Below, piece by piece: positions 4,868 to 63,523 of a stretch of 64,000 nt of DNA; positions within the stretch are counted from its first letter, which is position 1, and each line of letters starts with the position of its first letter. This DNA is from Trypanosoma brucei (Eukaryota). Below the pieces are notes generated by a model. It was not told the DNA's origin, searched no databases, and worked only from the letters and a program-made list of their open reading frames with translations. The position numbers were made by a program, and so were the translations under genes. The stretch is from contig CP000068.1 of assembly GCA_000002445.1 (NCBI GenBank), forward strand, positions 704,001-768,000, read 5' to 3'.

Positions 4868-5354
4868 TGTAAATAGTTTTCAAGTTAATGATGGAACAAT
4901 GTTTCGGGGGGCACGGAGAACTGGTTGAGGGACCGACGCGATATTTATTGTGTCTTCTTTTATCCCGTAACGGTAAGCGTATGGCCGCGCACCTTTATTT
5001 TTACATTCCTCTTTTTTTTGTGTATTTTTACGTCAGCATGCTTTTGGACCAAAGCAAAAGCAGCTGAGTTGGTGCCGTGTAAGCGTAATTTTACTTTACT
5101 ACTCTTTTACCTGTTTATTTTATTTTTTTTCACATGTGGAACTTTTGTTATACGCTCTATTTTTTTTGCGTTTTTAAAAATAAAAATCATCCTAAAAATT
5201 TCCCCTTCACCTCTTTTAACTGTATGCCATATCAGTTTCATTTGAAAGAGGTAGCACCCACACCTGCCTTTCCAAGTACGCAAAAAAAAATAATCAGAAA
5301 GCGGCTGCGATCGCTTGGTACGGGGCGGGTGAAGAGGCTGTGACATACGGGTCC

Positions 5355-8300
5355 ATGATGGCGGCCATCACACGCTATTCACCCCATTCAGAGCGGACAA
5401 GGGTTCATTACGAGCGCTTCCTACGTGATATTCGCCGTTGGTTGCCTCCAGGACTTGATGACAGCATAGGTGAAGTTGCAGAGGAGACTCTGTCCATTGT
5501 TTGCCGTGCAGGTAGTGGTGGTTTCAGTGGCTCTGGGGCAGCGACACAACTGCAGAATGTTCGTAAGCAACTCGAAACACTTTTTGATAGTCCACTGAGT
5601 GCGGAGACCCTTAACGAGGTGCTTCAGTACGGCCGGCTGATAGATGACTTCGTTTCGACAGAGGATGAACCTGGTGCTCACACCAACAACGTTGTCGCTG
5701 AAGATGGACTGAGTGATCTTTTGCTAATGCAGGAAGGCAAAGGCCAGCGGAAGCCGTCTGATATGTCGTCATCCGATTCAGATGGCGATACCCAAAAGGC
5801 CGACTATGGTAAGGGACGTGACCTGATGAAGTTTGCCGCAGATGTTGACAGTATCAACGATGGTTTCGATGATCAGAACGACGACGATGATGCAAACTGC
5901 ACGAACGCCATCCGTGTCACCTTCGAAGAGGTTGCGTGCAATCCGAACTATATTCGTGATTCTTTGCGTCGTCTGTTTCCCACGCAAACGATCGAGGAGT
6001 GCGATTTACAGGCAGAGCGCGTATTGCAGTACTGTGGAAAGCGGTCCGTGGATCAGCTAACACTGGAAACCCAGCTTACTGCATTTCTTGGCGGTTATGA
6101 CGACGAGGCGGTGACCGACTGGATCGCTACAGTGGCTGCATCTCGCTGGGATATCGTTTACGGCATGTCTTTCGCGTCGAAACAAACCCAGAAGGAAAAG
6201 TCTCTTGTGATGGATGCAGTAAAGGAGCATGCGCGTACTGACCGGGTTGTGGAGCGACTTTACCAAAGTATCACAGGGAAGGAGTTAGACAACAAGCCCC
6301 ATTCTGGTGAGCGGGGAAATGATGCCGATGGATCCAAACCACTGCGACGTGTTGATCTCCAGGCCTATGCATTTAAGGACGAACGCACACCGCATCAGTA
6401 CACGCACGCTGTTGTTCCCCAGGGGACAAAACGTGCGGTGTTTGAAACCCACGATGAAGTTATTCTCCCACCAACGGCTTCGGCGACAGAAAATCTTCCC
6501 TGCACGCCATTGGCCGTGTTCCCAGAGTGGGCACGACCCGCTTTTCCTGGAGTCACGCAACTGAATCCGATGCAGTCAAAGATTTTTGAGTGCGCTTTTA
6601 GGAGCGATGAAAATATGCTCGTTTGTGCGCCAACAGGGGCAGGAAAAACAAATGTTGCGATGATGGCAATACTGCGGGCCATATCAAACAACATGTCACG
6701 GACCGGTCTCGTTAACCTTCGAGAGTTGAAGGTGGTATATGTGGCTCCTATGAAGGCACTGGTCCAGGAGGTGGTGCGCACGTTCTCTGCGCGGTTGGAG
6801 CCGCTGGGACTTGCCGTCATTGAATTAACCGGAGATTCTGGTGCTAATCAGGCACAGGTGGGCGGTGCGCAACTCATCGTCACCACACCTGAGAAGTGGG
6901 ACGTTGTGACTCGAAAATCCGTCGAACTTGGTGTCGCGTCTCTGCTAAAGTTGCTTATTATCGATGAGGTCCACTTGCTGCATAACGAACGAGGACCTGT
7001 GCTAGAAGCTATCGTTGCCAGGACGCTACTGCAACAGCAACACCGATGTGAAGCGGGAATTCGCCTAGTAGGACTCAGTGCCACGCTGCCTAACTTTCAT
7101 GACGTGGCTAGTTTTTTGCAGGTCGATCGTCAGCGCGGGTTGTTTGTTTTTGATAGTTCTTACCGGCCAATACCTTTACAGCAAACATTCTGCGCTGTTA
7201 AAAAGGTTCGCGGAACGAACCAGGCGGCGGTGATGAACCTTGTGGTCTACGATAAAGTGTTAGAGGCGGCAACGGAGGGGGCTCAGTCGTTAGTATTTGT
7301 TCATTCTCGAAAAGATACAGATTACACCGCCCTATACATCGTGAGGCGCGTTGTCGATGACAAGCGGACGCATTACTTCGTGCGACCTGGAAGTGACTCG
7401 GAGCAGGTTCTGAGAGAGGCTGTGAGTGACCCATCAAATTCGCTGCGTCCGAGCATACAACAGATGCTTCCTTTTGGGTTTGCGGTCCACCACGCCGGCA
7501 TGAGCCGTGAGGAGCGCAGCCTCGTGGAATCATTATTTGCGGGTGGACATGTGCGAGTGCTCGTCTGTACATCAACACTTGCATGGGGCGTTAATTTACC
7601 AGCACACCAGGTGATTATCAAAGGAACACGGGTATTTAATGCTGCAAAGGGTGAAACTGAACTGCTCAATGCACTTGATGTTCTTCAGATGTTTGGCCGT
7701 GCGGGACGTGTCGGTTTCGGTTCTACGCTTGGAAGGGCAGCTGTGATAACGAGTGCCGAAGATCTACAGTATTACCTGAGTGTCCTCAACAATCAACTTC
7801 CAATTGAGTCGCAAATGATGCGCCGAGTTGTTGACATGTTAAATGCGGAGGTTGTCCTTGGACATATCACCAACTTGGATGAAGGCGTTCGGTGGCTCCA
7901 GCGCACGTACCTCTATATTCGTATGCGACGGGCTCCAGAGATTTATGGGGCACGTGCAAGTAGTAACGATCCTCTTCTTTTGCGTCACCTCGGGAATATT
8001 GTTCATACTGCGGCAGATGATTTGCGACGCTCACAAATGGTGGAGTACGACTCCAACACCCATCGCATTGCAACAACCTCACTGGGGCGCATTGCATCCC
8101 ATTATTACCTCACCACTACTTCTATGGCAACGTACCTTACCTACTTGTGTAACACTATGCACGATGTGGATCTGTTTCGCCTATTTTCAATGTCGAAGGA
8201 GTTTTCTCACATTATTGTTCGGCCGGAGGAGCAGTCCCAGCTACAGTATTTACTCGAGAACGCCCCCATTGCCGTTCGTGAGAGCCGCTACACTCCGTTA

Positions 8301-11300
8301 GCGAAAATCAATGTACTACTACAATGCTACATTAGTAATATGAACCTCCAGGGGTTGCCTTTGATGAGTGAAATGTCCTATGTGAAAGATTCCGCTCAGC
8401 GAATCCTTCGTGCTCTTTATGAGATTTCTTTGGTACGTGAGTATGGTCGTACAGCTCAGCAGATGTTGCAACTTTATCTCATGACTGTGCACCAACAATG
8501 GGCAGTACAGTCACCAGCGCGTCAACTTCGACACACGGTCCCACCTAAAGTTTTTGCTTCATTCATCCATGCTTTGGAGAGTCGTCGTGTTTCGTGGGAG
8601 GAGGTTCGTTCGTGGTCGTTGGAGGATTTGGTTGAGAAACTAAGCGATGAACGGCGAGCAGAAGCTGCTTATGCATGCATTCGTCGGGTGCCACACTTTA
8701 TTGTGGAAGCTGCGGTGCGCCCCCTTACACGTCGCATGTTGTATGTGGACGTAGACATAACCCCGGATTTTATGTTTGATGAAACGGTACACACTGGTAC
8801 ATCGGGTGAATTGGTCATTACAGTGGAACACACCAATGGACGCATTCTTCATTGTGAACGTATTAATCTTAGGGCAGCAGCTTTGCGTGGTTGTGAAACG
8901 GTCTCATCGCCGACTATTGTAGTGCCTGTAGTCGATCCCAAGCCCACACACTATTTTGTGCGATGTCACTCCATGAACTGGCTTGGTGTGGAGAGCAGCG
9001 TTGCGATATCCCTCATGAATGTTTTACTTCCGGATATTGCCCCACCTTTGCTGGAAGTGCACCACCGACCACCATCCGTGCGAAGTGAAGACGAGCGAGA
9101 TGTTTCCACTGCCATGCAACCTTACGGGATGGAAGCTGCGGCATCAAAGGTTTTCCCCTTCACAGAGTTTTTTCAAATACAGCACGACCTGGTTGCACCA
9201 ATAATGGAGAACAGGGGTGAAAGCTTCTTTGTCGCGTTCCCTCCTGGAAGCGGGAAAACGGCTGTTGCCGAGATTTTCATTTTGAAGTTCCTTCTGGAAT
9301 GCGCTCATTCACGGAGTGCCAATGGGGTTAGTTCCCCTGTTGGCGGGGGGAATGAAGAGGAAAACAATGACGGAGGGGAATCCATATTGAGAACCGAGCA
9401 AAAACTTCTGTATCTCACAGCCACCGAGGCGTGTGCTATGCGCCGCTATAACGAGTGGAGATACAAGTTTGGTGAGGAGCTCAACCAACGGGTGGCGAAG
9501 CTGGAGCCATACGGGGAAGAACTAGCGATCAAGGCTGAAAAAGTGAGAGGAGCAACAATAATCATTAGTTGTGGAAGTAGCTTTGCTCCTCTTCTCCGGC
9601 ACGGTGCCATGGATTTTCTTTCTGCAATCACGCATGTAATCGTTGATCATGTACACCTCCTACGTGCGCCGGAAGGTCGGTGGATGGAGGAATGCGTAGC
9701 GCGTTTGCAGTCGAAGCCCTATATAGTGAATAGGGGCCAAGGGCCGGCGCGTCTTCTTGCGCTGTCATACCCGTTGATCAGCTGCACTGAGGTATCGCGC
9801 TGGATGAAAGTGCCAACAGCGAGGCAGTACAACTACGGCAACTCCTACAGACAGCTTCGCGTTCGGCTTGAGGCTGTAGAGCAATTTAGCGCTCGCAGTC
9901 GCTATGCGGCGGCCACTATTTCAGTGTTGAAGCTACTGCAAAATGATCGGTATGCTGTATCACCCTGTGTGATTTTTGTTCCCACCGCACAAGATGCAGA
10001 GGAGCTTGCCCGCCGTATTGTTCTTCGCTGTCGTGATTTTGTTCCTACTGATGCCTGTGAAGATGTTGAGGACCGTCAACTCGCTCTTTTGTTGGCGTCA
10101 GGTGTTGCGTACATGCACCGCGGAAGCAGTTTGTTGGATGAACTTAACATAACGGAGAAGGTGGAACGACCCGCGCGACACCCTAAAACTGACGAGCCAC
10201 TACCTTTGTACCTTGTCTGCAGTTTTGAAGCCGCATGGAGGCTTCCCGCTGCATTGTTTGCCACTGCATTTGTGTGTGCTGCTGAGCGTATTGGTAATGT
10301 TTGTGAAGAAGATAAGGAGTCTGAGGTTGGTGATTTCGCTACCGACTGCTCCGTCTCGGAGTTGCTGCAAATGACGTCGCGGGCGCTCAATGAGGCTGTC
10401 GTGTACTGTCGGGCCGCCCGGCGTTGGGTGTGGAGCCGTCTCCTTAACGATCCGTTGCCGATAGAGTCACACCTTAGGTATCCTGAAGACTTCCGCGATA
10501 CGATCAACACCGCCGTTGCCCAGGGCCGGGCAAGAGATATGCCTGACGTACTGCGCATTCTTCAAAGCCACTACTTTTTGCACCACCTTCGCACAAACTT
10601 GCACTTCTACGGTGTACCCTCCAAGGAAGACATACCCGCTTACGCATCGGAGTTCGCGCGATCTGTCATAGCATCATTACAGCGGACTGGATGTGTCACT
10701 TCAAGTTCCAACTCAGCCTCATCAACAGGTTGTGACGGTGATGAACTGACTGCTCTTCAACCCACACCACGTGGTGTAGCGGCTATGCGCCACGGGATTT
10801 CCATCGAGTCTCTTGAGGCGATTGACGAAGCTGTGTCTGCTAACAGCAGATGTGGGGACTCAGTGACACGCATGTGGAGGGTGATAGCGTCATGCTGTGT
10901 GGAACTGACGCCGCAACATGTTGGAGATGCCGCGCGGATTGTAGACATCGCTGAGTTGAGTGCCCTTCACGTTGTGGCACGAGCTTTTCCCCATACCTAC
11001 GATGTCCAATATCTGGACATGGATTTCAGCAAAGGTTGGACGAAGGTGCATTTACTGGTTCTTGCACACTGTGCCCGGATGTTTGTACTGCCAGTCAGTT
11101 GTGACGATGGAGGTGTTGAGGCGGAGCGTGGGGAGATAGATGCACTTCATCCATTCGCATCGCGGTCTTCTTTGGCTGTCGAACCTCAACTGCTGCTGCA
11201 GATACCTCACAGTGTGGCCGAACGGCTTCTTGAAGACTTAAACGTCTTACTCCCCGTGGTGTTGGATTTAGTTCGTGGCGTGAGCGAAATTTTTGATGGG

Positions 11301-12068
11301 AGAACGCAATGGAGGCATGCCCGCTGTTTGATGCGGCTTCTTTCCCAAATCGAGCGTCGCGTGTGGGGGTTTGAGAACCCGATTATGGTGGTGCCTTGTG
11401 TGCAGGAGACTCCTGCACTCCAGCGACTGCTGCTGTCGGAGGACCCCAACTGTGTTTCATACTCGCTCGAACGTCTCCAAGAGCTGTGCGATGCTGGAGT
11501 CAAAGCCAGCAAAGAGTGGTGCGATCTAGCTAAGCGCTTGTGCGAAGAAGTTCCAGTGGTAAGTGATACCGCTGCCAGTGAAGCGTTGGTTCGTCGGTTG
11601 CGCTCCGAGGTCGCAGCTGTTCCCCGTGTCGTATCCCTTTCGTCCCGTGGAACGATCGAGTTAACTAAGGGCGGACAGGCCTTTGTTATCCGCGTAACAG
11701 GACGCGTTTTATGCGCGTGCTCAACAGTCGGCGGCTCATTGGGACCGTGGTGGATAGCTTGTGTCGTCCGGCACAGCGGTCGGGAACATGTCACAGAAAG
11801 GCTTATGGCGCTTCGCACTGTAGCGGCGGTAGTGGAGCCAACAACAAGGGACACTCAGGGCGGCAATACGCGTGATAAAGACGCCACTGGAAAGGACCTC
11901 ACAACTCCACCACCACTGCTCTCAGCCTGGAGTATAGAAGAAACACTTTCATTTCCTCTACACGCTGTGGATGGCGAGGATCTTGATACAATTACGATGG
12001 TTGCTATCGTGATTTCGGCGAGGTATCGTGCCGATGCGGAGGTGGACGTAACCTTTGCAGCGGGATAA
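5355..12068 (+). CDS. Brr2/U5 snRNP 200-kDa-like tandem DExH-box helicase (Ski2-like, two helicase-Sec63 cassettes)
   Basis: The ORF-track start at 5340 is GTG and the first ATG is at 5355. The N-terminal cassette has Walker A LVCAPTGAGKTNVAMM, IIDEVHLL (DEVH), SATLPN, QMFGRAGR, followed by a Sec63-like region. The second cassette has FVAFPPGSGKTAVAE but IVDHVHLL, with Glu changed to His, consistent with the inactive C-terminal cassette of Brr2. The length of 2,237 aa is appropriate. Confidence 0.75.
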   Translation: MMAAITRYSPHSERTRVHYERFLRDIRRWLPPGLDDSIGEVAEETLSIVCRAGSGGFSGSGAATQLQNVRKQLETLFDSPLSAETLNEVLQYGRLIDDFVSTEDEPGAHTNNVVAEDGLSDLLLMQEGKGQRKPSDMSSSDSDGDTQKADYGKGRDLMKFAADVDSINDGFDDQNDDDDANCTNAIRVTFEEVACNPNYIRDSLRRLFPTQTIEECDLQAERVLQYCGKRSVDQLTLETQLTAFLGGYDDEAVTDWIATVAASRWDIVYGMSFASKQTQKEKSLVMDAVKEHARTDRVVERLYQSITGKELDNKPHSGERGNDADGSKPLRRVDLQAYAFKDERTPHQYTHAVVPQGTKRAVFETHDEVILPPTASATENLPCTPLAVFPEWARPAFPGVTQLNPMQSKIFECAFRSDENMLVCAPTGAGKTNVAMMAILRAISNNMSRTGLVNLRELKVVYVAPMKALVQEVVRTFSARLEPLGLAVIELTGDSGANQAQVGGAQLIVTTPEKWDVVTRKSVELGVASLLKLLIIDEVHLLHNERGPVLEAIVARTLLQQQHRCEAGIRLVGLSATLPNFHDVASFLQVDRQRGLFVFDSSYRPIPLQQTFCAVKKVRGTNQAAVMNLVVYDKVLEAATEGAQSLVFVHSRKDTDYTALYIVRRVVDDKRTHYFVRPGSDSEQVLREAVSDPSNSLRPSIQQMLPFGFAVHHAGMSREERSLVESLFAGGHVRVLVCTSTLAWGVNLPAHQVIIKGTRVFNAAKGETELLNALDVLQMFGRAGRVGFGSTLGRAAVITSAEDLQYYLSVLNNQLPIESQMMRRVVDMLNAEVVLGHITNLDEGVRWLQRTYLYIRMRRAPEIYGARASSNDPLLLRHLGNIVHTAADDLRRSQMVEYDSNTHRIATTSLGRIASHYYLTTTSMATYLTYLCNTMHDVDLFRLFSMSKEFSHIIVRPEEQSQLQYLLENAPIAVRESRYTPLAKINVLLQCYISNMNLQGLPLMSEMSYVKDSAQRILRALYEISLVREYGRTAQQMLQLYLMTVHQQWAVQSPARQLRHTVPPKVFASFIHALESRRVSWEEVRSWSLEDLVEKLSDERRAEAAYACIRRVPHFIVEAAVRPLTRRMLYVDVDITPDFMFDETVHTGTSGELVITVEHTNGRILHCERINLRAAALRGCETVSSPTIVVPVVDPKPTHYFVRCHSMNWLGVESSVAISLMNVLLPDIAPPLLEVHHRPPSVRSEDERDVSTAMQPYGMEAAASKVFPFTEFFQIQHDLVAPIMENRGESFFVAFPPGSGKTAVAEIFILKFLLECAHSRSANGVSSPVGGGNEEENNDGGESILRTEQKLLYLTATEACAMRRYNEWRYKFGEELNQRVAKLEPYGEELAIKAEKVRGATIIISCGSSFAPLLRHGAMDFLSAITHVIVDHVHLLRAPEGRWMEECVARLQSKPYIVNRGQGPARLLALSYPLISCTEVSRWMKVPTARQYNYGNSYRQLRVRLEAVEQFSARSRYAAATISVLKLLQNDRYAVSPCVIFVPTAQDAEELARRIVLRCRDFVPTDACEDVEDRQLALLLASGVAYMHRGSSLLDELNITEKVERPARHPKTDEPLPLYLVCSFEAAWRLPAALFATAFVCAAERIGNVCEEDKESEVGDFATDCSVSELLQMTSRALNEAVVYCRAARRWVWSRLLNDPLPIESHLRYPEDFRDTINTAVAQGRARDMPDVLRILQSHYFLHHLRTNLHFYGVPSKEDIPAYASEFARSVIASLQRTGCVTSSSNSASSTGCDGDELTALQPTPRGVAAMRHGISIESLEAIDEAVSANSRCGDSVTRMWRVIASCCVELTPQHVGDAARIVDIAELSALHVVARAFPHTYDVQYLDMDFSKGWTKVHLLVLAHCARMFVLPVSCDDGGVEAERGEIDALHPFASRSSLAVEPQLLLQIPHSVAERLLEDLNVLLPVVLDLVRGVSEIFDGRTQWRHARCLMRLLSQIERRVWGFENPIMVVPCVQETPALQRLLLSEDPNCVSYSLERLQELCDAGVKASKEWCDLAKRLCEEVPVVSDTAASEALVRRLRSEVAAVPRVVSLSSRGTIELTKGGQAFVIRVTGRVLCACSTVGGSLGPWWIACVVRHSGREHVTERLMALRTVAAVVEPTTRDTQGGNTRDKDATGKDLTTPPPLLSAWSIEETLSFPLHAVDGEDLDTITMVAIVISARYRADAEVDVTFAAG

Positions 12069-13125: not shown

Positions 13126-15957
13126 ATGCAACGTGCCCAGATTCTCAAAGCGGGCGCAGTTTGCGCCGGTCGTCGAGAGAAATGCTCGGCAACCTCCTCC
13201 GCATCCTCGGGCTCTTCACCGAAAACAAACAGTTCAGGTACTTTACAGGTTTGTCGAGGGCGGCAACGGACTGTTAGTGAAGCACCATCCACCCCAGGAA
13301 GCGAGGGTATACGGTTCGGGGTTCAAGGATCCCTTCGAAGATTTTGGAATAGTCGTTCACAGTCAGGGAAGCCCATTGCTACCGATGCTTCCGTTGATGG
13401 GAAGTGCACAAGCATAACGACCGATGAGGTGAAAGTGCCGTCTTCCGTCTCCGTTTCCTCGCCTATCCACGTGTGTGACGATGTGGTTACCACGAAGGGT
13501 GACTGTGGGTTAGTGTGCACTGGGACTCAAACTAGCGTGGAGTTTTGTCGACATCTCAGTTTGCAGCAATGCGGTGTGGCCGTTGAGCACGGCGTTGATT
13601 CAAGTCTTCACAGCGAGGGATTGCTCCCAAAGCTGCGGTACGGCTCGAGGCGAATGGTTAAGCGACTGATGAGACGTCTTCGGTTGCCAAGTACCTGGGA
13701 GGCAACACTCATTCACTCACTTAACGAGGCCAGAGGGAATCCACACACTGTCGCTGCCGCATTAACCAAGCAGCTGGATAGCAGTTGCGGGAAGTTAGTG
13801 TTACTTCCGCCTATAACGGCTGTGGGTGGGGAGAATCTGGAGTGTTGTAGAACACAATATAACACACAACGTACTGATGAAGTACCTCGTGTGCAGGGTG
13901 GGGAAGGTGTTTCGGATGAAATCACGCATAGTCCCGTGCGGCGTATGGATGGTGCCCCGCCATTGACTGTCGGAGAGGTAAGTGGTGCGCAGCCCAACAA
14001 GCAGAGGGCTTTCCCCTTGCAAACCACGAATGCATCGGCAGAGGACTCAAATTTATCGGCATGTGTATCCGGGAATACACCCGAAGGTCCGGCGCGTCCG
14101 TCGTTCGGTGGTCTTGACCTGGACACCGGCGTGGGTGCCGTGGGCAGGAAGGGTTCCATTGTGGGAACACCGTCGGGATCTAGCGAGAATCAGCCAGGGG
14201 ACGCGAACAAAACCTCGACCCTAAGGACGAAAGGTGCCTCCACCGCCGCCTCCGGGGGATTGCCGTTGAGAGCACCACGGGTAGGGGAAGACTTTCAGTT
14301 ACAGGAGGTGTGTAAAGTAAACGCACCGTTTGCGGATGGTTCGTTGCGGACTGACTCCATTTTTCAGTTGCCGGGCCTGTCGTGCAGGGAAACACCATCA
14401 TGTGAGCAGAGTTTGCCAAAGGCGGGCCTGGAGTTGTCGTTGTCAACTGACAATAAGGAAGCGAGTCGTATGGAGGGCGTCGGCGGCGCATACTTCTCCG
14501 GGGGGAAGGGGGGCGCATGTCCTTCAGAGAAGTTCTGGACATCGAGTCGCTCAGTTGATGAAGCAAACCCGGTGGACCCATTTGCAACGGACGGGACATT
14601 AAACCGTGCTGTTCTTCAGAAGACTGCGTTTGCTACACCCTTAACTCCTCCATTGATCAGTGCAGCAGCTACCGAAGAAGGATGTGTGCCTCCGCCACCC
14701 ACGCTCAGCGTAGGAACCACCGAGGACAAAGGCATTCCCTCATTACCGCCACCACCACCGCCGCCACCACCGCCTGTTCGAGGGAAAGTACCGGAAAACC
14801 GCCGGTGTTGTAAAACGCGCAGTGTTCCCATAGATAAAACACAATACATCGCGGGGAGCTCGGCGTTTTGCGCGAGTGAGCCTGTTAACCTGCCTGGAGA
14901 TTTTTTTCAAATTCTCGCGGAGGAATTCAAGCTTGCCGAATCCTCCTCCACAAGGAAAGCGCCGGGTTTGGTAGCAGAGACCATTGTCAGTACAGATCGC
15001 GAGAAAAACGTTGGCGTGGTGCTGCGTGTTCTTCGGCTTCCTGTGAGTACCATCGAAGAGTGCGTACGCAGTTTCGACGATGATACGCTATCGGAGGAGT
15101 GTGTAGCTAGTTTGGCCAAAGTAATTCCCACAAAGGAAGAGAGGCGTTTGGTTGAATCGTGGATTAATCAAGACCCTGCTGTTGAGGCATGTAAGTTGCA
15201 TCGATTGAGTACGGTGTCCCAGTTTTTCGTTATGTGCGTCTCAGTTGACTTGTACGCTGAGCGTATAGAATGCTGGAACATGCGAAACGAATTTAATTGC
15301 CGCGTTGAGGATCTTGAACAGAAACTGAAGCGTGCTCATGACGGCATTCGGGCGGCCCTGGACACTAAACGTCTGCCAAGGGTTCTTCAGTATATTTTAG
15401 CGATCGGCAACTTTCTAAACGCTGGTAGCAGGTATGAAGATGCAAAAGGATTTTCGATCTCCCAGCTTGACCAGATAATACAGTTCCCGACTACGGACAG
15501 AAAGCGTACTTTACTGGAGCATGCTGTGATGGTCATTGAGCGATGCGAACCAGACTTGCACCGATTTACACAAGAGTTGCTACCGAAGGTGGAGTACGCA
15601 GGTGGCTTTGACACGGTCGGCGTCACCAGTGAAATTCAGTACCTTCGAGAACGATTGGAAAAATGCGTGACGCTGGTTCATACTATTGCAGAAGATAATC
15701 CCTGGACTTCAAAACTTGACCCTTTTTTACGTAGTGCCCTACCTGCAATGGAACGTATCGAGCAGCATCACAGTGACTTAGAGGCTGTTAGCGAAGAATT
15801 GGCGATCTTCTTTTGCGAGGACCCAAAGACGTTCCCCATGAACAAAGTCATGCGATGCCTCTCGAGTTTTGCGAAAAGGTACGATGGGAAGAGGGCCCTA
15901 TTGCAGGGGAGGAAAATGAACCCTTCTAAGAACCCCCGTCGTGCAATTAGAAGTTAA
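13126..15957 (+). CDS. formin (FH1 poly-proline plus FH2 domain)
   Basis: An 11-Pro FH1 tract (LPPPPPPPPPPPVRGK, about 14745-14790) is followed by an FH2 core signature ILAIGNFLNAGSRYEDAKGFSISQLDQII...RKRTLLEHAV (the GNxxNxG ... TLLH pattern). The N-terminal 450 aa or so is Ser/Gly/Thr-rich and disordered. Confidence 0.65.
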   Translation: MQRAQILKAGAVCAGRREKCSATSSASSGSSPKTNSSGTLQVCRGRQRTVSEAPSTPGSEGIRFGVQGSLRRFWNSRSQSGKPIATDASVDGKCTSITTDEVKVPSSVSVSSPIHVCDDVVTTKGDCGLVCTGTQTSVEFCRHLSLQQCGVAVEHGVDSSLHSEGLLPKLRYGSRRMVKRLMRRLRLPSTWEATLIHSLNEARGNPHTVAAALTKQLDSSCGKLVLLPPITAVGGENLECCRTQYNTQRTDEVPRVQGGEGVSDEITHSPVRRMDGAPPLTVGEVSGAQPNKQRAFPLQTTNASAEDSNLSACVSGNTPEGPARPSFGGLDLDTGVGAVGRKGSIVGTPSGSSENQPGDANKTSTLRTKGASTAASGGLPLRAPRVGEDFQLQEVCKVNAPFADGSLRTDSIFQLPGLSCRETPSCEQSLPKAGLELSLSTDNKEASRMEGVGGAYFSGGKGGACPSEKFWTSSRSVDEANPVDPFATDGTLNRAVLQKTAFATPLTPPLISAAATEEGCVPPPPTLSVGTTEDKGIPSLPPPPPPPPPPVRGKVPENRRCCKTRSVPIDKTQYIAGSSAFCASEPVNLPGDFFQILAEEFKLAESSSTRKAPGLVAETIVSTDREKNVGVVLRVLRLPVSTIEECVRSFDDDTLSEECVASLAKVIPTKEERRLVESWINQDPAVEACKLHRLSTVSQFFVMCVSVDLYAERIECWNMRNEFNCRVEDLEQKLKRAHDGIRAALDTKRLPRVLQYILAIGNFLNAGSRYEDAKGFSISQLDQIIQFPTTDRKRTLLEHAVMVIERCEPDLHRFTQELLPKVEYAGGFDTVGVTSEIQYLRERLEKCVTLVHTIAEDNPWTSKLDPFLRSALPAMERIEQHHSDLEAVSEELAIFFCEDPKTFPMNKVMRCLSSFAKRYDGKRALLQGRKMNPSKNPRRAIRS

Positions 15958-17170: not shown

Positions 17171-17240
17171 CTGCTTCCCCTTGCTTTATTTTCTTGTTCT
17201 TGTTCATCCTTTTTTTTTCTACTAATTTTTCTCGATTTTG
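17171..17240 (+). promoter_or_regulatory. polypyrimidine tract: putative trans-splice acceptor region for the NPPF-motif gene
   Basis: A long C/T run (cttccccttgctttattttcttgttcttgttcatcctttttttttctactaatttttctcgattttg) with AG at 17247-17248, upstream of the ATG at 17343. Confidence 0.3.
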
Positions 17241-17342
17241 CGAGGCAGTGGTTGGGTCGCCTGCGGGAAATACCGTTTAAGGGCCCAGGAGAGAAGGCAG
17301 GTTGTCCTCGGTTTACCTCTGTGCTTCATAAATCAGCAACTC

Positions 17343-19478
17343 ATGCGCGTGCGAACAAAGCGAGAAGGCGTTAGCAACAACTTTGGAAGCGCTTATGTCA
17401 ACTGTGAAATCATCAGTGCCTTCATCAAGCAAAAAAGGGAGGAAAACTCCTCCTCTGGACTTTGTCCGTCCGCGCACACCGCTGTAGAGTGGAGTATCCG
17501 AGCTGGTTCCCGAACAGCATTTTTGCTTCACGAGGTTCCCATATCCTGTGGACCGTCATCTCCCGTTGGTAAGGAGTGTGGTGCACCTGAAAACAATGAC
17601 AATTCCGTCGAGAATGGCGACACCGGGACATATAAGTTGGTAATAGGTGACGAAGTTGTGTCTGCCATAATGAGTGCAGACGATGAGTTGGATCGGTCCG
17701 ATGCTTTGCGTCTCCTTTCGCAAAAGCTTTGTGAAGTCTTTCGCATACCTGTGGGGATCACCACGGGCGACAACAGCCACGGTAATTGCCTGTGGAGTGA
17801 GGAGGGTTCGTGTTCAGTGTTGACACCACAAGAATTACGGGAGCTACCCTCACGCTGGATAATGCAGAGCCTAAACGAAGCCACCGTGGCGAGTTCACAC
17901 CGTAACGGCGTTACACTTCTTGATTGTGGCGCAACAGTGTGTTTGAAGTCAGAGGTTCTCAATGACGAGCCAAAACGCGAACTCAGTAGCGAGCCTGTGC
18001 GTAAAAGGAACTATAAACCTGGTAATGCGCCACAGTATCGGGTGTGTGACGTCGCTGACATGGCTAACGGGCAATATTGGGTTGAGGTGGAGCCGTTAAT
18101 AACTGGTCCAGAATCAACAGGATCTGTAGCCCGAAGGCGGTTTGATCGGGATGAGTTGCTGTTAAGTCCACCCCAACCCGTATACTTTGATCCACTTCTT
18201 CCAGTTGATGAGATAAATAATTCTCGTGGGACGTCGGCATGTCTTTTTCTTTCGGCAGTGTTAGCAGTTGGTCGGATACGTTCTGAACGTGCGGCAATCG
18301 GTGATCTGTCGATGTGGGACATGTATCCGAAAAATGTTACGTTGCAAATGGGTTACGCTTCGCGAGATATAAGGCGCAAAGTGCACGAACTGTGTGCGGC
18401 ACGTCGCGACGCTCTCCACGTGGAGGGTGGCACTGAAGGTACAGACGTGAAAAAAGAGGAGTTGGAGTTGCGGTTAGTTACTGACTACGTAACTTTGCGC
18501 TACAAGGGGAAAACAATTGAAGTCCTGCAACGAACGGTGGAACGTCTGTCGTTGCTATGGGACGCGCGGTTGGCAGTGAGAAGAGTGAGGGGGGCTAGGA
18601 GGGCACACGAATTATGGCTTGACGCTGTAGAAACACAGGCCGCATCAGATTTTTCTGAGAAGATACACGTTTTCAGCACCGTTGAGCCGTTCTTTATGCG
18701 CCTGTTTACTTTGTTGCTGCGGTATAGTTCACTGTTCGGTGATTTAGGTTATAATCAAGGGCCGCATGCCGCTGTTCCACCGGCAATCATGCAACAGTTG
18801 TGTCAGGTATTTGATATTCAGTGTGAGGCATTTGCAAGCCCACTCAATGCTCAGTTGCCGCTATTTTGCTCCCTGTTCCCCGACACTGATTACTTTTTTG
18901 GGTCACTGGGTTCCTTTTTCGACATCGCGCTGACAGCAGGACATTTTGAGGTAAATCCACCTTTTGTAACTGCGGTGTTACAGCGGCTGGAAAAATTACT
19001 GCTGAAAGACACCCTACCTATTAACGACAGTGATGGTGCTGCATCTATGTTATTTGTTGTAGTGCTTCCGTCCCACGACCTAGATGAAACTGAGAGGAGT
19101 GATGGCCTGGAAGGGGGAGCGCCGGTTGCAGGGAACACCACTCTGAGGCAGAATAATAACTGCGATAGGAAGAGGGGCCGCTTTGAAAACGATGGGAGAG
19201 ATAAAGGTGGCGGAAATGCTGTAAGCACCGACCGGGCACTACGGGAGAGTCCGTACTGTCTTGCTCACGTTCTTTGTTCTGCCCATGAGTCCGTGTACGT
19301 TGACGGACATCAGCACATGCTTCGTGCACCCCTTTTTTGTATTGGGTCTCCAACACGACTTATTGTGCTGGGAAATCGAACGGCCCGCCTTCGTTACAGC
19401 GACGCCGCAACGCGGTTACAATCTGTGCGAGAGGCATGGCGGGGCTACACCTTGGAGAACAGAGTTGATAGCCCGTAG
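17343..19478 (+). CDS. hypothetical protein with NPPF amino-methyltransferase-type motif (PCIF1-like?)
   Basis: The ORF-track start at 17238 is TTG and the first ATG is at 17343. The protein contains ...FFDIALTAGHFEVNPPFVTAVLQRLEKL. The [N/D]PP[F/Y/W] tetrapeptide is the catalytic motif IV of N6-adenine and amino methyltransferases (PCIF1 = NPPF). No other recognisable domain. Confidence 0.55.
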   Translation: MRVRTKREGVSNNFGSAYVNCEIISAFIKQKREENSSSGLCPSAHTAVEWSIRAGSRTAFLLHEVPISCGPSSPVGKECGAPENNDNSVENGDTGTYKLVIGDEVVSAIMSADDELDRSDALRLLSQKLCEVFRIPVGITTGDNSHGNCLWSEEGSCSVLTPQELRELPSRWIMQSLNEATVASSHRNGVTLLDCGATVCLKSEVLNDEPKRELSSEPVRKRNYKPGNAPQYRVCDVADMANGQYWVEVEPLITGPESTGSVARRRFDRDELLLSPPQPVYFDPLLPVDEINNSRGTSACLFLSAVLAVGRIRSERAAIGDLSMWDMYPKNVTLQMGYASRDIRRKVHELCAARRDALHVEGGTEGTDVKKEELELRLVTDYVTLRYKGKTIEVLQRTVERLSLLWDARLAVRRVRGARRAHELWLDAVETQAASDFSEKIHVFSTVEPFFMRLFTLLLRYSSLFGDLGYNQGPHAAVPPAIMQQLCQVFDIQCEAFASPLNAQLPLFCSLFPDTDYFFGSLGSFFDIALTAGHFEVNPPFVTAVLQRLEKLLLKDTLPINDSDGAASMLFVVVLPSHDLDETERSDGLEGGAPVAGNTTLRQNNNCDRKRGRFENDGRDKGGGNAVSTDRALRESPYCLAHVLCSAHESVYVDGHQHMLRAPLFCIGSPTRLIVLGNRTARLRYSDAATRLQSVREAWRGYTLENRVDSP

Positions 19479-20865
19479 TCTGCCCGTGCATACGTTTATT
19501 TGGAAAACATTTTTGCTTTTCCCTCCCAGACTGCTAGGCGAGTTTTCTTTCTTCTAGCGTTATTTCAAGTGCACTACCGACGCTCTGGTGCCAGGCTTCT
19601 CACTTATTCCAGTAGAAGCTCCACTTCTGTCCAACATCGCGGGTGGAGCCCCTGCTTTATCTAATTTTTTTTCTCCTCCCCTTTTCGCATGTTTGTTTTT
19701 GTGGCTCTCGGAGCCCCTCCTCCCGACTACTTTTTCATTGAGTTGATGCACCTGCGGGGATTTGTGTGCTGTCGGTGCAGGATGGTTGGTGAAAGTTATA
19801 ACCACAACTCGCTGATTTCAAGTGCTCCTCATCCCCACGTTAAAAAAAATATTTATACTGTGTTTTTTTTTTGAGCGCAGAGGCACATTTGGAATGAAAT
19901 CATCCATCAATGTTGGCCAACCCGTCCTTAAAACGCTTCGAACCCCCTCTGCAGTTCATACCCAGTTTAAGAGGTGCCAGCGACTCTGGAAATTTTATAA
20001 AGGGGTGGTGATGTGGCGGCGAGCAGTTTAATATATTTATTTCTTCTTTGGCTGCTTTACGTTGAGCTTGTCTCGTGAGGCGTAGCGACACACTTACGGG
20101 GGGAAGGGGGAGGGGGACAGATTAAACCGGTTAATATTTCCTTCCGCTCTACCAACATCTCGGGGGGGGGGGAGGTTGTGATGCATGTGCATGTGCTTGT
20201 GTGTGTGGAAATACTCCAGTTATGCAGCATGAGATGCATATAGAAGTAGGAGAATCCCTTTATTCCTGACGTTTGTACAGATCCACGCCTGCGTACAATC
20301 AATGGAGCCTGAGCCTCTCTTTAACCTCGAGGTGCCATATGTCCCGTTGTTGGTTTAATTTTATATGAGGCATGAAGAAGGTGCTTGTATGCATGGAAGT
20401 TCTTGCTGCTGTGGGCTGTTCGACGTAGGGGACACACACACAAAAAAAAGTAGCGACAACGAAAATATTAACCGAAACGGTGGCTAGTTGTGCTTAGTCC
20501 CTTGTTTTTTTTCTGTGATTTCTGTTGCAAACTACATCCTTTTACTCCTTCATTATCTTGCACCGTCAAAATGTCGAGGTTGGCAATTTTTGATCCTAGT
20601 ACTGCACCGCAACAGGCGGGGAAGGAGGTGTCATCGAAATAAAGAGGGAACGACACCAGGGCAATTCACAAAACAAGCGGTGGCAAAAATATTTATCCCT
20701 TAACATCTTAGCGGCATTTGAACTTTGGCAGTTGATATTGGGAGTAAGAGTTTAAAAGAAGGTAAGACCAAACCTCGATCCCACAATCTCTTTTACCTTG
20801 TAGTGTCAGCTGCTTATACTCGGCACTTCTCATCACCTACGGCATTCGTTCGAGGAAACTCGTAG

Positions 20866-23076
20866 ATGTTGTGCGCGTTGGATGACACTTGGGCAGATTG
20901 TCTTGATGAGTTTAAATTGGCCCTTTCCTCCACGGGAAATACGTGGAAATGTGAATCATTAGCGGGTGTCGATAAGGAGGCGATGCTCAGCGCTCCAGAG
21001 GTGATGGATGCCAAGACGGACCCAGGATGCGGATATGCTCAAATCCGCTCGCTCAACGACCTCCTCGCGAAAGGGGACATTCCTTCGGCTGCAACACTGC
21101 AGGGACAGGAATTACTGGACGTCATGGACCTCATTCTTGCTAAGGAACTACAATATCTTCAGGGATTTTCCCTTACTTCGGGTTGTCTTGCCTTCCCGTA
21201 TTTTTTCAAGATGGATTTACTAAAGGAGCAGAATCCTGTGTTGCATGCGTATTGCCGAGGTGTTGTGAGGACCGTAGAGATTGTGCTGCGTGCGGTCATG
21301 ACGACTGGGATCCGCAGCGATGAGGAGTTTGTGCCATGGATAAGGGAGATGGAAAGCGAGGAAAACGTGCCCGATGAGCAGATTCTTTGTCAACTTGAGG
21401 AGGCTGCATGCAAGGCAGACTCACCTGCCGTTGCGACGCGGTTGCGTTGGCGCATGGACTTTCTTTCTGCGCTCCGGTTGTTTGTTGTTGTTGAGGGAAA
21501 AGCGGCTGTTGAGGAGGCATGCGGTATATGCAGCGCGGCGCAGGAGCTGTTGAATTCAGATGACTATGCGCGTACTTTTGAGCCCGTGCAGGATGGCCGT
21601 TTTTTCCGCGAGACTGAGGTTGCGTATTGGGCGAGTGGTTTCACTCCAACAAAACCAATGCCCGTTGCTCCCTTTTGTGAGGTGGTGCAGTCGTACACGA
21701 CAACGCTGCAGCAGTTGGCTTCACTCAAAGATTTGTTCAGTTTACCGTCTATTCAAGCCATCTTGGAATATATCGAGTCTATCGGGGCGCAGAAGCCGCT
21801 GCTTCCAGTGCGAGCAATTGCAGTAATCGCACTATTTCGCAGTAATCCAAGTGAGTCTTTTCTTTATGGTCCTTCCTTGAGCCATCGCGTTCTTGAAGAC
21901 TTGTCAACAAGTTACGGCGCCCCCCTTTATCTTGGAATAATGGAGGGAAAGGAGGAATTACTCGAGGGTGTGGTGAAGTATCGCCTTCACAAGGGAATGG
22001 ACCACCGCAAAGTAACACCTCAACAAACCGAGTTCCTCCGCCAGCACACCGTAGATGCTGTACGTAGTTGGGCAAGAGAAATGGAAAAGGTATATCTTAT
22101 TCATATGGAGTGTATGCTCTGCAACCGGGGTCTTGCCCACCGCCGGCTTATGAATGTGCTGCCCCAACTAGGGGGACTGCAGGAAATGTCGTACAGCACT
22201 GACATTAACATTTTTCTTTCTCAGACCCCGGGGTTGGCTGCGGACTTGCAGAACGAAGCTATCAAGCGAACATCAATACTTACAATGTACGCTAACCAAC
22301 ATGTTTTGCATGTGATGGAGCTTATTTTCTCCCTTACGGTTGAACTTGATCTCTTTACGCAGGGAGAGCTTGTACCCGCACTTTGGTATATGAATTTTAT
22401 ACAGCGGCTGCAGGTGGAGAACCTCTTAAATTTATCTCCGCCATATGGCGCTTTAATTCCTGAAACCCGTATAAACCGGGTAACGAAGGTACCACTGTAT
22501 AATCTGGCCCTAAGCACTCGTACCTCAGGGAATGTGGACACACTTCGTGTTGCCATTTTGGAGACGGGTCGGCAGATTACTGATGCTCTTTTCCGTGCCG
22601 CATGCGTGATGGAGGCCAAGGGGCTTATCGACTTCAAAACTCAGGGAAAGTACTCACTTACTACGGTGGAGAGAGTGTTTAACAACCGCATGAAATGCTT
22701 GGGCCACATCCGCAGCCCAACCTTTGTGCCATACGGCTACTGTGTGTCTGCCAAACCTAACTTTTCCTCAACTAATGACGGGGATCCACCGAAAATTTCA
22801 CATTACGCTCACGAAGCAGGCGTGCAGGCGCTTAATGCGGCAGAGCGATTGAAACATCTGCTAGCGATGAAGGGCCTCGATGGGGCGCGCGGGAGAGCTT
22901 TGTACGAACACATCAAGGCAATGGAAAAGACAGCGCGGGCGATAAATGCGTCTTTGGCATCATTTGTTGGTGTGTGTGACGATGAGGAGGCATTGAAGGG
23001 GTATGCCGTGGAGGTTTGTCGACCCTTCCATTCCTGTATGATATGCCTCACCTTAAGGAAGAGGACAACCGCTTGA
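20866..23076 (+). CDS. hypothetical protein, possibly Mak10/Naa35-like (NatC auxiliary subunit)
   Basis: At 736 aa the size matches Naa35. The N-terminal motif EAMLSAPEVMDAKTD resembles the Mak10 N-terminal motif (EAMSAIEMMDPKMD in the metazoan protein, from my memory). Identification is tentative. Confidence 0.5.
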   Translation: MLCALDDTWADCLDEFKLALSSTGNTWKCESLAGVDKEAMLSAPEVMDAKTDPGCGYAQIRSLNDLLAKGDIPSAATLQGQELLDVMDLILAKELQYLQGFSLTSGCLAFPYFFKMDLLKEQNPVLHAYCRGVVRTVEIVLRAVMTTGIRSDEEFVPWIREMESEENVPDEQILCQLEEAACKADSPAVATRLRWRMDFLSALRLFVVVEGKAAVEEACGICSAAQELLNSDDYARTFEPVQDGRFFRETEVAYWASGFTPTKPMPVAPFCEVVQSYTTTLQQLASLKDLFSLPSIQAILEYIESIGAQKPLLPVRAIAVIALFRSNPSESFLYGPSLSHRVLEDLSTSYGAPLYLGIMEGKEELLEGVVKYRLHKGMDHRKVTPQQTEFLRQHTVDAVRSWAREMEKVYLIHMECMLCNRGLAHRRLMNVLPQLGGLQEMSYSTDINIFLSQTPGLAADLQNEAIKRTSILTMYANQHVLHVMELIFSLTVELDLFTQGELVPALWYMNFIQRLQVENLLNLSPPYGALIPETRINRVTKVPLYNLALSTRTSGNVDTLRVAILETGRQITDALFRAACVMEAKGLIDFKTQGKYSLTTVERVFNNRMKCLGHIRSPTFVPYGYCVSAKPNFSSTNDGDPPKISHYAHEAGVQALNAAERLKHLLAMKGLDGARGRALYEHIKAMEKTARAINASLASFVGVCDDEEALKGYAVEVCRPFHSCMICLTLRKRTTA

Positions 23077-25845: not shown

Positions 25846-28800
25846 ATGGCTGCTCGGTTGGAGGCAATTGCAGCAGAATACTTTCTGCCTGCAAAACCTG
25901 AGAACCGTACGAGGGAAGGAGACAGCGTTAGCAGCAAGGGTGGTAAGATAACACACACCTCTGCTGAAGCAGCGGCAGGAAATAGCGGTCAATACCCACC
26001 AACTTCTTCACAGGAATCCGAAACGGATAAGAAGCGCGGTGGTGTTAGCGAAGATGACTGTGGAAAGTCTTCAACACCTTTAGCATTGCTTGACAGCGCA
26101 CATATTCTTCCCCCTCTCATGCTCTATTTTGAATGCCTACCAACGGAATGGGAAACAACGCCTGCTGTATCCGCAAATCAACCAGCGGTTCCAGGTTTAG
26201 TGCGGACATCGGCGTCAGGTGGCGTGCCAACAGGGTGTGAAGTTGCGTGGCAACGCCCAAGGCAATTCGGATCGGATCCTAGTGATAAATCTTTTTGTGC
26301 AAAGTGGTATGGAAAGCGTAGGAGGCAGGGCACTCAGAAAGAAATGGGAGCCGCGGTCTCATGTGAAGATAGGTATAGGGGAAGGCAGCGAGTACAATCG
26401 GACAATGGCCTCTGGAGGTGGTGTGATGACATGGATGTGTTTGCAAACTTTGCACAGCCCCCGTTGAGTGTTGTTTGCGCTTCGTATGAGATGCTGGACG
26501 AAAGGCACCAACGTGGTCTTAACGCGGTCACCACACTAGTAGAAAAGTGCAACGACTCTTTTCATCGCGAGCAGTGGGTCACGGCGACCTCGTTGTCCAT
26601 GCAGCGCCCACCATTTGGGTTCGGAAGCACTGAGGCAGGCACTTCTACTAATGCTGGTTCCATGCCTGCTTGTGCCTCAACCCCGACACCGACTCTTACA
26701 GACTATCGTAGTTCCATTGTAAACTCTCTTAACAGTTTTTTGCGTAGCTTGAGCAAGCGCGGTGACCAAGTTCTCGTGTTGCATATAATTATACGAGTGG
26801 CCACGTGGCGGTTTTGTAGTAGGAACGAGAGGGTTACTCTTTTATTTAATCACATCCACGCATGTTTGCCGACTGTTCACCCATCAACGGCAACTCTAGC
26901 AATGGAAGCGTGGGCGCAACTTCACGCGATAGGGGCAAGCTCCACGGTATACTTGAAAATTGCGACCGAGATGTTGCGACTGGCATGCACTTTTATAAGT
27001 GATGTGAGTGTGCCTGCGGGCCAAGTTAGTGGGTTTATTATGATCCACCACATAGCGCAGTGGCCTTACTTGCTATATCGTACTTTACTGCGTGACGAAA
27101 GAGATCGGCTCTTGCTCGTGATATGGAAATCATTGATGAGCACTCACCAGCCACACGTGCGCGAGTTGGCGGCAGTGGCGCTGCGAAGCTTGTTTATTCT
27201 GGATATCGTACGGGGAAGTTATTCTTGTATGCGCGAGTTGTTGGACCGAGCTGCTTTACTTGTACTATCACCCGGTGACCACCAAAAGGCACCTTTATCT
27301 TCTCCACGTACTGCACCAGTCACCAAAGGTGCCGCCCATAAGTCACAGCGTGCAACACCGTTAGGCACTTCGTTAAAACAGTTGGAAGCACCCCTTTTAG
27401 TGGGCGAAACCGCTTGTACTCCGAGGGCTGTTGTTGGCACTGAATCTGTCGGTACTGGACAATGTTGTCGAGAGGGCACCTCATGTACAATTACACTCCC
27501 GAGTATCCCTTTTTTTGGGTGCACGATAGCCCGTCAATATTGTTTGAACTGGAATTCATCATCTGGTGACGGTGGTGCGACTTTAGTTGCCACGGAAAGC
27601 GGTAGTAGTGGAGGGGACTTGCTGAGGCCGGCTGCAGAAGAGGCTGTTGTTGTCGCGAAGGGTGAACTGGGGAATGTAGAGGGGCGTTGTTTTGTACCGC
27701 GGTTATCCCCTCCTGCTAATGACGAACCATTTTTGTGCGGGTATATTAAACAAGTTGATCCGGCCAATAAGCGCTTTAAGAACCGGTTGGCAACGATCGC
27801 CCCGTCTCACAACGCGGATACCAACTTGCATGCTAGCACCCTCGTGATTGGAGCGTTCGTGAGTGCCCTGCGTTCCTGTGCTGCCTTCCTTGAAATTCCT
27901 CCCTTAGTTGGTGCAGAAGATACACAACCTGGTGTGGCCACAGGTCTACGAGGTGCTAACGGAGGCGAAACCGTGTCTGTCAGTGAAGCACAGGGAGGTC
28001 CTCCGTGTTCGTCTGAGAGTAGCGAGGAAACCGATTCATGCAGGAGATCAACCAGTCTTGCCGGTAGCAGCCCTTTGTATGACACTGCTGGCGGTGCCAA
28101 AACCACTTTGTCGATTGCAGCCGTGATGGAGCACCTTGACGAAACTTCACTAGGGCGGTCACCACCAAAAGGGGGAAAATATCACGCGGCGCCAAATACT
28201 GGGGATCGGCGATCGCTCGGTTATCCTTCTCGGAGTCAGGAGGGGCAGGGCTCTGCACCAGCGGTCCCTGATGATACCAGAAAGGTCAAAGAATTGGTGT
28301 TGTGGAGGTTATTCCCAGTGCAACCACTTCTCCAATGCTTAGCGCGTGAACGACAGGATAAATCAAGCTCTTTATGGCATGTCGAGCGACTGGTTGCTGT
28401 TTTGGCACTTTATGGTCTTCATACTCTGAAGGAGGGTGAAATTCGTGGAGCTTTAGACATGCTTTTAAGAAGGGCTAAGGTGGCGCATAGGAAGGCTGCG
28501 GCTGGTAAACAGCAGCAGGAGGCGTGTGTTCTACACGTAGCCCTTCCTGCATCTGCCGCTTTTGGTAACTCCACAGTTGGTGGTGGAGTCGGCAGTATTG
28601 CTGGAGACACAGTTGGGACCAGTGAGAAAGACATGTACACACTGTCTCTCGTCAACTTGTCTCTTTTTCTTTCAGCTATTGCAGTGAAGTATCCGCAACT
28701 GTTTGAGGTTACGTTTGTAAGCCATATTTACCCGATGCTTTTCTACGCTCTTCAGCAGGCAACACCAGCTTACTGTCCCGCCGCCAGTGCAGTTCTCGCT

Positions 28801-48152: not shown

Positions 48153-48177
48153 ATATATATATATATATATATATATA
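48153..48177. repeat. (TA)n microsatellite
   Basis: tatatatatatatatatatatatata. Similar runs occur at 49850-49876, 60804-60825, 63154-63177 and 1615-1632. Confidence 0.9.
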
Positions 48178-49677: not shown

Positions 49678-49740
49678 TGATTTATTATTATTATTATGAT
49701 TTATTATTATTATTATGATTTATTATTATTATTATTATTG
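49678..49740. repeat. 19-bp tandem repeat (tgatttattattattatta) x about 3
   Basis: Direct reading shows the unit recurring at 49678, 49697 and 49716, then decaying into (tta)n. Confidence 0.8.

Positions 49741-63485: not shown

Positions 63486-63487
<2 letters not shown>

Positions 63488-63523
<36 letters not shown>

What the first reader, a model, noticed from the sequence alone, without database searches (positions are those of the whole stretch)
17343..19478. NPPF-motif protein: candidate PCIF1-like N6-adenine (cap) methyltransferase
The segment GHFEVNPPFVTAVLQ carries the N-P-P-F tetrad, the catalytic motif of PCIF1/CAPAM (cap-adjacent m6Am writer). More generally it is the [D/N/S]PP[Y/F/W] motif IV of amino-methyltransferases. 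Kinetoplastid mRNAs carry the hypermethylated cap-4, whose first nucleotide is m6,6Am. As far as I know the base N6,N6-dimethylase is not assigned, so a PCIF1-like protein in a trypanosomatid is an obvious candidate. The rest of the protein has no recognisable fold in my reading, so the call rests on one short motif plus context.
Basis: inference. Interest (0 to 1): 0.6.

Follow-up and report, generated by a model that had tools for sequence, protein, structure and literature searches.

The report
Trypanosome PCIF1 cap adenosine methyltransferase gene

Summary
Window 17343-19478 (+) is an intact 711-aa ORF with NPPF at aa 538-541 (nt 18954-18965).

The interpretation also holds, on much more than the motif:
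- Pfam PF12237 (PCIF1) matches at E=1.6e-35.
- A family profile matches human and zebrafish PCIF1/CAPAM crystal-structure sequences at E~1e-57.
- NPPF sits directly after a beta strand and is invariant in 13 of 13 aligned trypanosomatid orthologues.

It is not new. The protein is identical to T. brucei TREU927 XP_844905.1 (UniProt Q582D4), already named a PCIF1 domain protein. A 2024 NAR paper (PMC11417388) reports that T. cruzi PCIF1 converts m7GpppAm to m7Gpppm6Am, citing Pandey et al. 2020. The T. cruzi gene found here is syntenic and 63% identical over the catalytic domain.

One question stays open: who adds the second N6-methyl of cap-4 m6,6Am. That activity was "not yet reported" in 2024.

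The trypanosomatid proteins differ from animal PCIF1. They have no WW domain, a conserved clade-specific N-terminal region, and a disordered insert after beta-5.

Verdict: a real gene, correctly interpreted, already known. Interest is low.

The parts
17343..19478 (+). Complete coding sequence (711 aa plus stop) of the T. brucei PCIF1/CAPAM orthologue
   Evidence: ORF list and translation. The product is 100% identical to XP_844905.1 / UniProt Q582D4_TRYB2.
17173..17249 (+). Pyrimidine-rich tract followed by AG dinucleotides (17243-44, 17248-49): likely trans-splice acceptor region about 95 nt upstream of the ATG
   Evidence: Read directly from the sequence. Its function is inferred from the general rules of trypanosomatid trans-splicing and was not tested.
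17343..18449 (+). N-terminal region (aa 1-369) specific to the kinetoplastid-type clade; it sits where animal PCIF1 has its WW domain
   Evidence: Conserved blocks in orthologues include LPxRW[VI]MQS, VTxLDxGAxV, GxYWV and DPLLPxDE. No Pfam family, WW included, matches even at E<=10. No match to PDB sequences. The first AF2 model gives only moderate confidence here, and the SH3/Tudor-like Foldseek hits are not significant.
18450..19475 (+). Region homologous to the crystallised CAPAM core (part of the helical domain plus the Rossmann methyltransferase domain), aa ~370-711
18681..19088 (+). Pfam PF12237 (PCIF1_WW) match, aa 447-582
   Evidence: E=1.6e-35, 122.7 bits against a gathering score of 31.1.
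18825..18890 (+). Family-invariant motifs E-A-F-A-S-P-L-N (aa 495-502) and F-P-D-T-D (aa 512-516), likely part of the SAM-binding half of the Rossmann fold
   Evidence: These positions are invariant or nearly invariant across distant PF12237 homologues. They align to human ECFASPLN and FPDTD. The assignment to SAM binding is inferred from the general layout of class I methyltransferases.
18954..18965 (+). Catalytic motif IV, N-P-P-F (aa 538-541)
   Evidence: Invariant in 13 of 13 orthologues. It lies directly after strand aa 533-537 and before helix aa 543-557 in a model region with pLDDT 95-97. It aligns to the NPPF of human and zebrafish PCIF1.
19047..19085 (+). Strand beta-5 (MLFVVVLP, aa 569-576) and the clade-specific motif P-S-H-D-L-D
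   Evidence: Model strand at residues 280-287. PSHD is present in every member of the top-scoring kinetoplastid-type clade. Human and zebrafish PCIF1 have P-E-W at this position, and other homologues have P-x-W or P-x-[SA]-D.
19128..19205 (+). Low-complexity, probably disordered insertion (aa ~596-621) specific to the clade
   Evidence: pLDDT is below 50 for model residues 307-332. The segment is absent from non-kinetoplastid homologues and varies in length among orthologues.
19224..19376 (+). Conserved C-terminal part of the methyltransferase domain (S-T-D-R-x-L-R-E-S ... Y-V-D-G-H-Q-H ... P-T-R-L-I-V-L-G-N, aa 628-678)
   Evidence: Invariant columns. It aligns to human/zebrafish '...EHEYRSGSQH...' in the profile search. 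Model strands have pLDDT 87-98.

Best explanation
The gene encodes the T. brucei orthologue of PCIF1/CAPAM, a SAM-dependent N6-adenosine methyltransferase specific for the cap-adjacent nucleotide. The likely mechanism is as follows. The enzyme binds the m7G-capped 5' end of the spliced-leader RNA (m7GpppAACU...). It places the first adenosine, preferably already 2'-O-methylated, in a pocket lined by N538-P539-P540-F541 at the end of strand beta-4. It then transfers a methyl group from SAM to N6, giving m6Am, the precursor of the m6,6Am of cap-4. Shown here: family membership, fold, motif position, conservation and positional orthology to the T. cruzi gene. Taken from the literature: the activity of T. 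cruzi PCIF1 on m7GpppAm RNA. Inferred: that SL RNA is the in vivo substrate, and the order of steps (m7G capping, then 2'-O-methylation, then N6-methylation). Undecided: whether the same enzyme also adds the second N6-methyl. Because the protein has no WW domain, recruitment must differ from animals and probably uses the conserved clade-specific N-terminal region.
Against: Nothing here tests the activity of the T. brucei protein. The residues that bind the m7G cap in CAPAM could not be compared, because no residue-level structural alignment or model coordinates were available. The global TM-score to CAPAM is only about 0.56; differences in domain orientation, or the N-terminal ~170 residues of the crystallised core missing from the model, might account for this, but neither was tested. 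The WW domain that recruits animal PCIF1 is absent. The dimethylating activity needed for cap-4 had not been reported for any enzyme as of 2024. I could not read Pandey et al. 2020 directly.
Confidence: 0.85

Rival explanations
1. The enzyme is a true dimethylase. TbPCIF1 alone adds both N6-methyl groups, accepting m6Am as a second substrate, and so fully accounts for the base methylation of position 1 of cap-4.
For: Only one PF12237 protein from T. brucei appears in the searches. PMC8868631 attributes m6,6Am to PCIF1. The kinetoplastid-type clade has its own conserved features near the active-site half of the fold: PSHDLD after beta-5 and a GYNQGP loop. After CAPAM, the structurally nearest enzymes include the m6,6A dimethylases Erm, DIMT1 and KsgA, so the fold family is compatible with dimethylation.
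Confidence: 0.35
2. The protein is a catalytically inactive PCIF1, like the Drosophila protein, kept for a structural or scaffolding role.
For: Inactive PCIF1 copies exist. Drosophila has NPPH (PMC9479742). At least 14 homologues in the representative search carry GPPY instead of NPPF.
Against: NPPF and all family-invariant positions are intact and invariant across trypanosomatids. T. cruzi PCIF1 is reported to be active.
Confidence: 0.03
3. Its main substrate is not the cap. It is instead the missing writer of internal or poly(A)-tail m6A in T. brucei, which has no METTL3/METTL14.
For: Reviews list no known m6A writer for Trypanosoma (PMC12905994; PMC10915109). Human PCIF1 has weak activity on internal adenosines and on uncapped 5' ends (PMC8931429).
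Against: The whole CAPAM core, including the part of the helical domain present in the model, is conserved. T. cruzi PCIF1 acts on capped RNA. The ancillary internal activity of human PCIF1 is far less efficient. No data link this protein to poly(A) tails.
Confidence: 0.07

Closest known systems
Human and zebrafish PCIF1/CAPAM (PDB 6irv, 6irw, 6irx-6is0)
   Different: There is no WW domain. About 370 N-terminal residues are clade-specific. PSHDLD replaces PEW after beta-5. A disordered insert of about 25-45 residues follows it. Structure-based identity is only about 19-23%. The in vivo product in trypanosomes is dimethylated at N6, whereas the animal product is m6Am.
Trypanosoma cruzi PCIF1 (for example XP_808354.1 / Q4D1V2), reported as an m6Am methylase by Pandey et al. 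2020 as cited in PMC11417388
   Same: It is the positional orthologue, with formin upstream and NAA35 downstream. Identity is 47% overall and 63% over the catalytic domain. The architecture is the same, and NPPF, PSHDLD and the N-terminal blocks are identical.
   Different: T. cruzi has an extra phosphodiesterase gene between PCIF1 and NAA35. The T. brucei protein itself has not, to my knowledge, been assayed.
Dim1/KsgA/Erm/TFB1M family of N6,N6-adenosine dimethyltransferases
   Different: There is no sequence-level match: no Pfam RrnaAD hit, and Foldseek E>=0.03 is not significant. Their motif is N-[IL]-P-[YF] rather than NPPF, and they act on rRNA hairpins, not caps.
METTL3/METTL14 (MT-A70) m6A writer
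   Same: It is a SAM-dependent N6-adenosine methylase of mRNA with a [DN]PP[WF]-type motif.
   Different: It belongs to a different, circularly permuted clade. No MT-A70 Pfam hit was found. Trypanosomes are reported to lack it.

Membership tests
PCIF1/CAPAM (Pfam PF12237) | Sequence match to the family profile above the curated threshold | tested here: met
   122.7 bits against a gathering score of 31.1, E=1.6e-35, aa 447-582. The family profile matches human and zebrafish PCIF1 at E~1e-57.
PCIF1/CAPAM (Pfam PF12237) | Catalytic N-P-P-F at the end of strand beta-4 of a Rossmann-type methyltransferase fold | tested here: met
   NPPF is at aa 538-541, directly after strand 533-537 and before helix 543-557, with local pLDDT 95-97. 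It is invariant in 13 of 13 orthologues.
PCIF1/CAPAM (Pfam PF12237) | Overall fold of the crystallised core (methyltransferase domain plus the family-specific helical domain) | tested here: met
PCIF1/CAPAM (Pfam PF12237) | N-terminal WW domain binding Ser5-phosphorylated RNA polymerase II CTD (usual but not universal in the family; PMC4738411 says 'usually fused') | tested here: not met
   No WW or any other Pfam hit in aa 1-439 at E<=10 or in the full protein at E<=1. The feature concerns recruitment, not catalysis, so it does not exclude membership of the catalytic family.
PCIF1/CAPAM (Pfam PF12237) | m7G-cap binding pocket between the helical and methyltransferase domains | not testable with these tools
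   No residue-level structural alignment or model coordinates were available, and the sequence alignment to CAPAM does not reach the N-terminal part of the core.
PCIF1/CAPAM (Pfam PF12237) | SAM-dependent N6-methylation of cap-adjacent Am | not testable with these tools
   Reported for T. cruzi PCIF1 (PMC11417388 citing Pandey et al. 2020). Not assayed for this protein.
Dim1/KsgA/Erm N6,N6-dimethyladenosine transferases | Family profile match and N-[IL]-P-[YF] motif | tested here: not met
MT-A70 (METTL3/METTL14) | MT-A70 profile match and DPPW motif | tested here: not met
   No MT-A70 hit at E<=1. The motif is NPPF.

The most novel reading that the evidence does not exclude
Besides acting on the cap, this PCIF1 orthologue could be the long-sought writer of non-cap m6A in T. 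brucei (poly(A)-tail m6A on VSG mRNA and internal sites). The organism has m6A but no METTL3/METTL14, and human PCIF1 shows weak activity on internal and uncapped adenosines. A less radical version is that clade-specific changes make it a true N6,N6-dimethylase; I put that at about 0.35.
Probability: 0.07. Interest if true: 0.75.

Novelty: already known. Interest (0 to 1): 0.2.

Why it matters
Cap-4 is the most heavily methylated mRNA cap known, and every trypanosome mRNA carries it. The 2'-O-methyltransferases are assigned, and PCIF1 is the accepted source of the first N6-methyl on position 1. The gene found here is therefore the right handle for the remaining question: who makes the second N6-methyl, and what m6,6Am is for (recapping, translation, decapping resistance). 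The identification itself adds nothing to public annotation or to the 2020-2024 literature.

Tried and rejected
1. The first AlphaFold run on the full-length protein with 13 orthologues gave pLDDT 52.9, with the catalytic region below 50. I set this model aside, although Foldseek still matched only CAPAM significantly. A second run on aa 290-711 with 44 sequences gave pLDDT 85.2.

2. I looked for a WW domain or any known domain in aa 1-439 and found none. There was no PDB sequence match either. The SH3/Tudor/Agenet-like Foldseek hits have E>1 and come from a poor model, so they are not used.

3. I considered that replacing the Trp of the P-x-W motif after beta-5 with PSHD might explain dimethylation. 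I rejected this as evidence: among 184 family sequences, many non-kinetoplastid homologues have P-x-[SA]-D or other residues there.

4. The residue before NPPF is Val (Ile or Met in two orthologues) in trypanosomatids and Ala in vertebrates, but FEVNPPF is also common in unrelated protist homologues.

5. Genomic context is a polycistronic array of unrelated genes on one strand. It is useful only for synteny.

6. Pandey et al. 2020 and Boulias et al. 2019 could not be read, so their content is cited second-hand.

7. The domain-only database search returned few, unnamed hits and no animal sequences.

Full report
**Observation.** The window is a trypanosomatid polycistronic array: all 14 ORFs of 300 aa or more lie on the + strand. 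The flagged interval 17343-19478 runs from the first ATG of an open frame to its stop codon and encodes 711 aa. The quoted peptide GHFEVNPPFVTAVLQ is there, with NPPF at aa 538-541, nt 18954-18965. The start codon is supported by a conserved M-x-V-R-x-x-R-E-G-V N-terminus in orthologues. It is also supported by a pyrimidine-rich tract at about 17173-17239 followed by AG dinucleotides, about 95 nt upstream. The motif alone proves little. [DNS]PP[YFW] occurs 11 times in the six-frame translation of the window, once inside the next gene, although NPPF itself occurs only once.

**What it is.**
- Pfam finds a single family, PF12237 (named PCIF1_WW), at E=1.6e-35 and 122.7 bits against a gathering score of 31.1, covering aa 447-582.
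- phmmer against all PDB sequences finds only human and zebrafish PCIF1/CAPAM (E~1e-17). NPPF, ExFASPLN and FPDTD align residue for residue.
- A profile built from trypanosomatid and distant homologues raises this to E=7e-58 and 1e-57. It extends the alignment to the C-terminal end of the crystallised construct, including the Y-x-x-G-x-Q-H motif.
- A first full-length AlphaFold model from 13 sequences was poor (pLDDT 52.9).
- A second model of aa 290-711 from 44 sequences is good (pLDDT 85.2, pTM 0.80). It has a beta strand at aa 533-537, then NPPF, then a helix at aa 543-557. This is what is expected for motif IV at the end of beta-4.
- Foldseek against the PDB returns six significant hits, all CAPAM structures (E=8e-18 to 1e-12, mostly about 400 aligned columns). 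Everything else has E>=0.03.

**Orthologues and conservation.** The protein is identical to T. brucei brucei TREU927 XP_844905.1 / AAZ11346.1 (UniProt Q582D4). Sources name it 'Phosphorylated CTD interacting factor 1 WW domain containing protein, putative'. Orthologues exist in T. congolense, T. vivax, T. cruzi, T. rangeli, T. conorhini, Leptomonas, Leishmania and Novymonas, all carrying PF12237. In a 13-sequence alignment, N538, P539, P540 and F541 are invariant, along with about 100 other positions. Gene order is conserved. The window has Brr2-like helicase / formin / PCIF1 / NAA35. T. cruzi has the same order with an extra phosphodiesterase gene. Leishmania has formin / PCIF1. A full scan of 1.84 billion representative proteins finds 2619 relatives at E<=1e-3. 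Only 24 have E<=1e-30, a distinct kinetoplastid-type clade.

**How trypanosomatid PCIF1 differs from animal PCIF1.**
- There is no WW domain or any other Pfam domain in aa 1-439, even at E<=10. From general knowledge, the trypanosome RNA polymerase II CTD lacks canonical heptads, which would fit this absence.
- The clade instead has about 370 N-terminal residues with its own conserved blocks. Their fold I could not establish.
- After beta-5 the clade has an invariant P-S-H-D-L-D, where human and zebrafish have P-E-W. A disordered insert of variable length follows.

I tested whether the loss of the Trp could be linked to dimethylation and dropped the idea. Many unrelated homologues also lack the Trp.

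**What is already known.**
- Iyer et al. [quoted passage not shown] 2020. [quoted passage not shown]
- PMC8868631 lists PCIF1 as catalysing m6Am and m6,6Am.
- PMC9479742 confirms m6,6Am, with a little m6,6A, as the first nucleotide of T. brucei mRNA.
- I could not open Pandey et al. 2020 itself. From memory, its abstract says that Trypanosoma Pcif1 is an m6Am methylase contributing to the trimethyladenosine of cap-4. That recollection is not a tool result.

**Mechanism.** By homology, the enzyme binds SAM in the N-terminal half of the Rossmann fold, where the invariant ExFASPLN and FPDTD motifs lie. It holds the target adenosine against NPPF and methylates N6. In trypanosomes every mRNA receives its 5' end from the spliced-leader RNA, which starts m7GpppAACU. 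The likely substrate is therefore nascent SL RNA after m7G capping and 2'-O-methylation of A1. Family, fold, motif geometry and orthology are shown here. The activity is taken from the T. cruzi report. The substrate, the order of steps and the recruitment route are inferred. Whether the same protein adds the second methyl is open: I put this at about 0.35. An inactive pseudo-enzyme is very unlikely, given intact invariant motifs and the reported activity of T. cruzi PCIF1.

**Most novel reading.** The most novel reading not excluded is that it also writes non-cap m6A. T. brucei has m6A in poly(A) tails but no known writer, and human PCIF1 has weak activity on internal and uncapped adenosines. 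I give this about 0.07.

**Verdict.** The finding is already known, both in annotation and in the literature. Interest is low (0.2). The remaining value is as a pointer to the unsolved second methylation of cap-4 position 1.

Noticed in passing
window 13126-15957 (+) and 20866-23076 (+): The flanking genes are a formin (FH2, E=3e-55) upstream and a NAA35/Mak10-like NatC auxiliary subunit downstream. T. cruzi has an extra PDEase_I gene between PCIF1 and NAA35 (L001 10508-12772). The window's 1.4-kb spacer at 19479-20865 has no such gene.
   Followed up: partly
window 5340-12068 (+): A 2242-aa Brr2/SNRNP200-like spliceosomal helicase (Sec63, DEAD and SNRNP200 wHTH domains). It is syntenic with T. 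cruzi.
   Followed up: partly
window 25846-39099 (+): A 4417-aa ORF whose only Pfam hit is a weak PI3_PI4_kinase match near the C-terminus (aa 3920-3982, E=1e-6). It may be a giant PIKK-like protein.
   Followed up: no
window 39666-41303 (+) and 45008-47269 (+): Two ORFs of 545 and 753 aa have no Pfam family at E<=1e-5.
   Followed up: no
window ~48000-50000, 56000-58000, 62000-64000: Markedly AT-rich stretches (GC 0.32-0.36 against about 0.48 elsewhere). They may be long intergenic or UTR regions.
   Followed up: no
protein P0055 (not in the window): A 4332-aa predicted protein carries a kinetoplastid-type PCIF1 domain (NPPF, PSHD) at its extreme C-terminus, residues 4062-4312. It is either a real fusion or a gene-model artefact.
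   Followed up: no
proteins P0043, P0023-P0025, P0036 (not in the window): Short (350-680 aa) PF12237 proteins occur in metagenomes. One is labelled as coming from a Patescibacteria MAG, although PCIF1 is described as eukaryote-only (PMC8868631). They could be viral or contaminant sequences.
   Followed up: no
family-wide: At least 14 of the 184 PF12237 sequences collected carry GPPY in place of NPPF, and are presumably inactive. This may correspond to the inactive DIRS1-retrotransposon methyltransferase domains described in PMC4738411.
   Followed up: no
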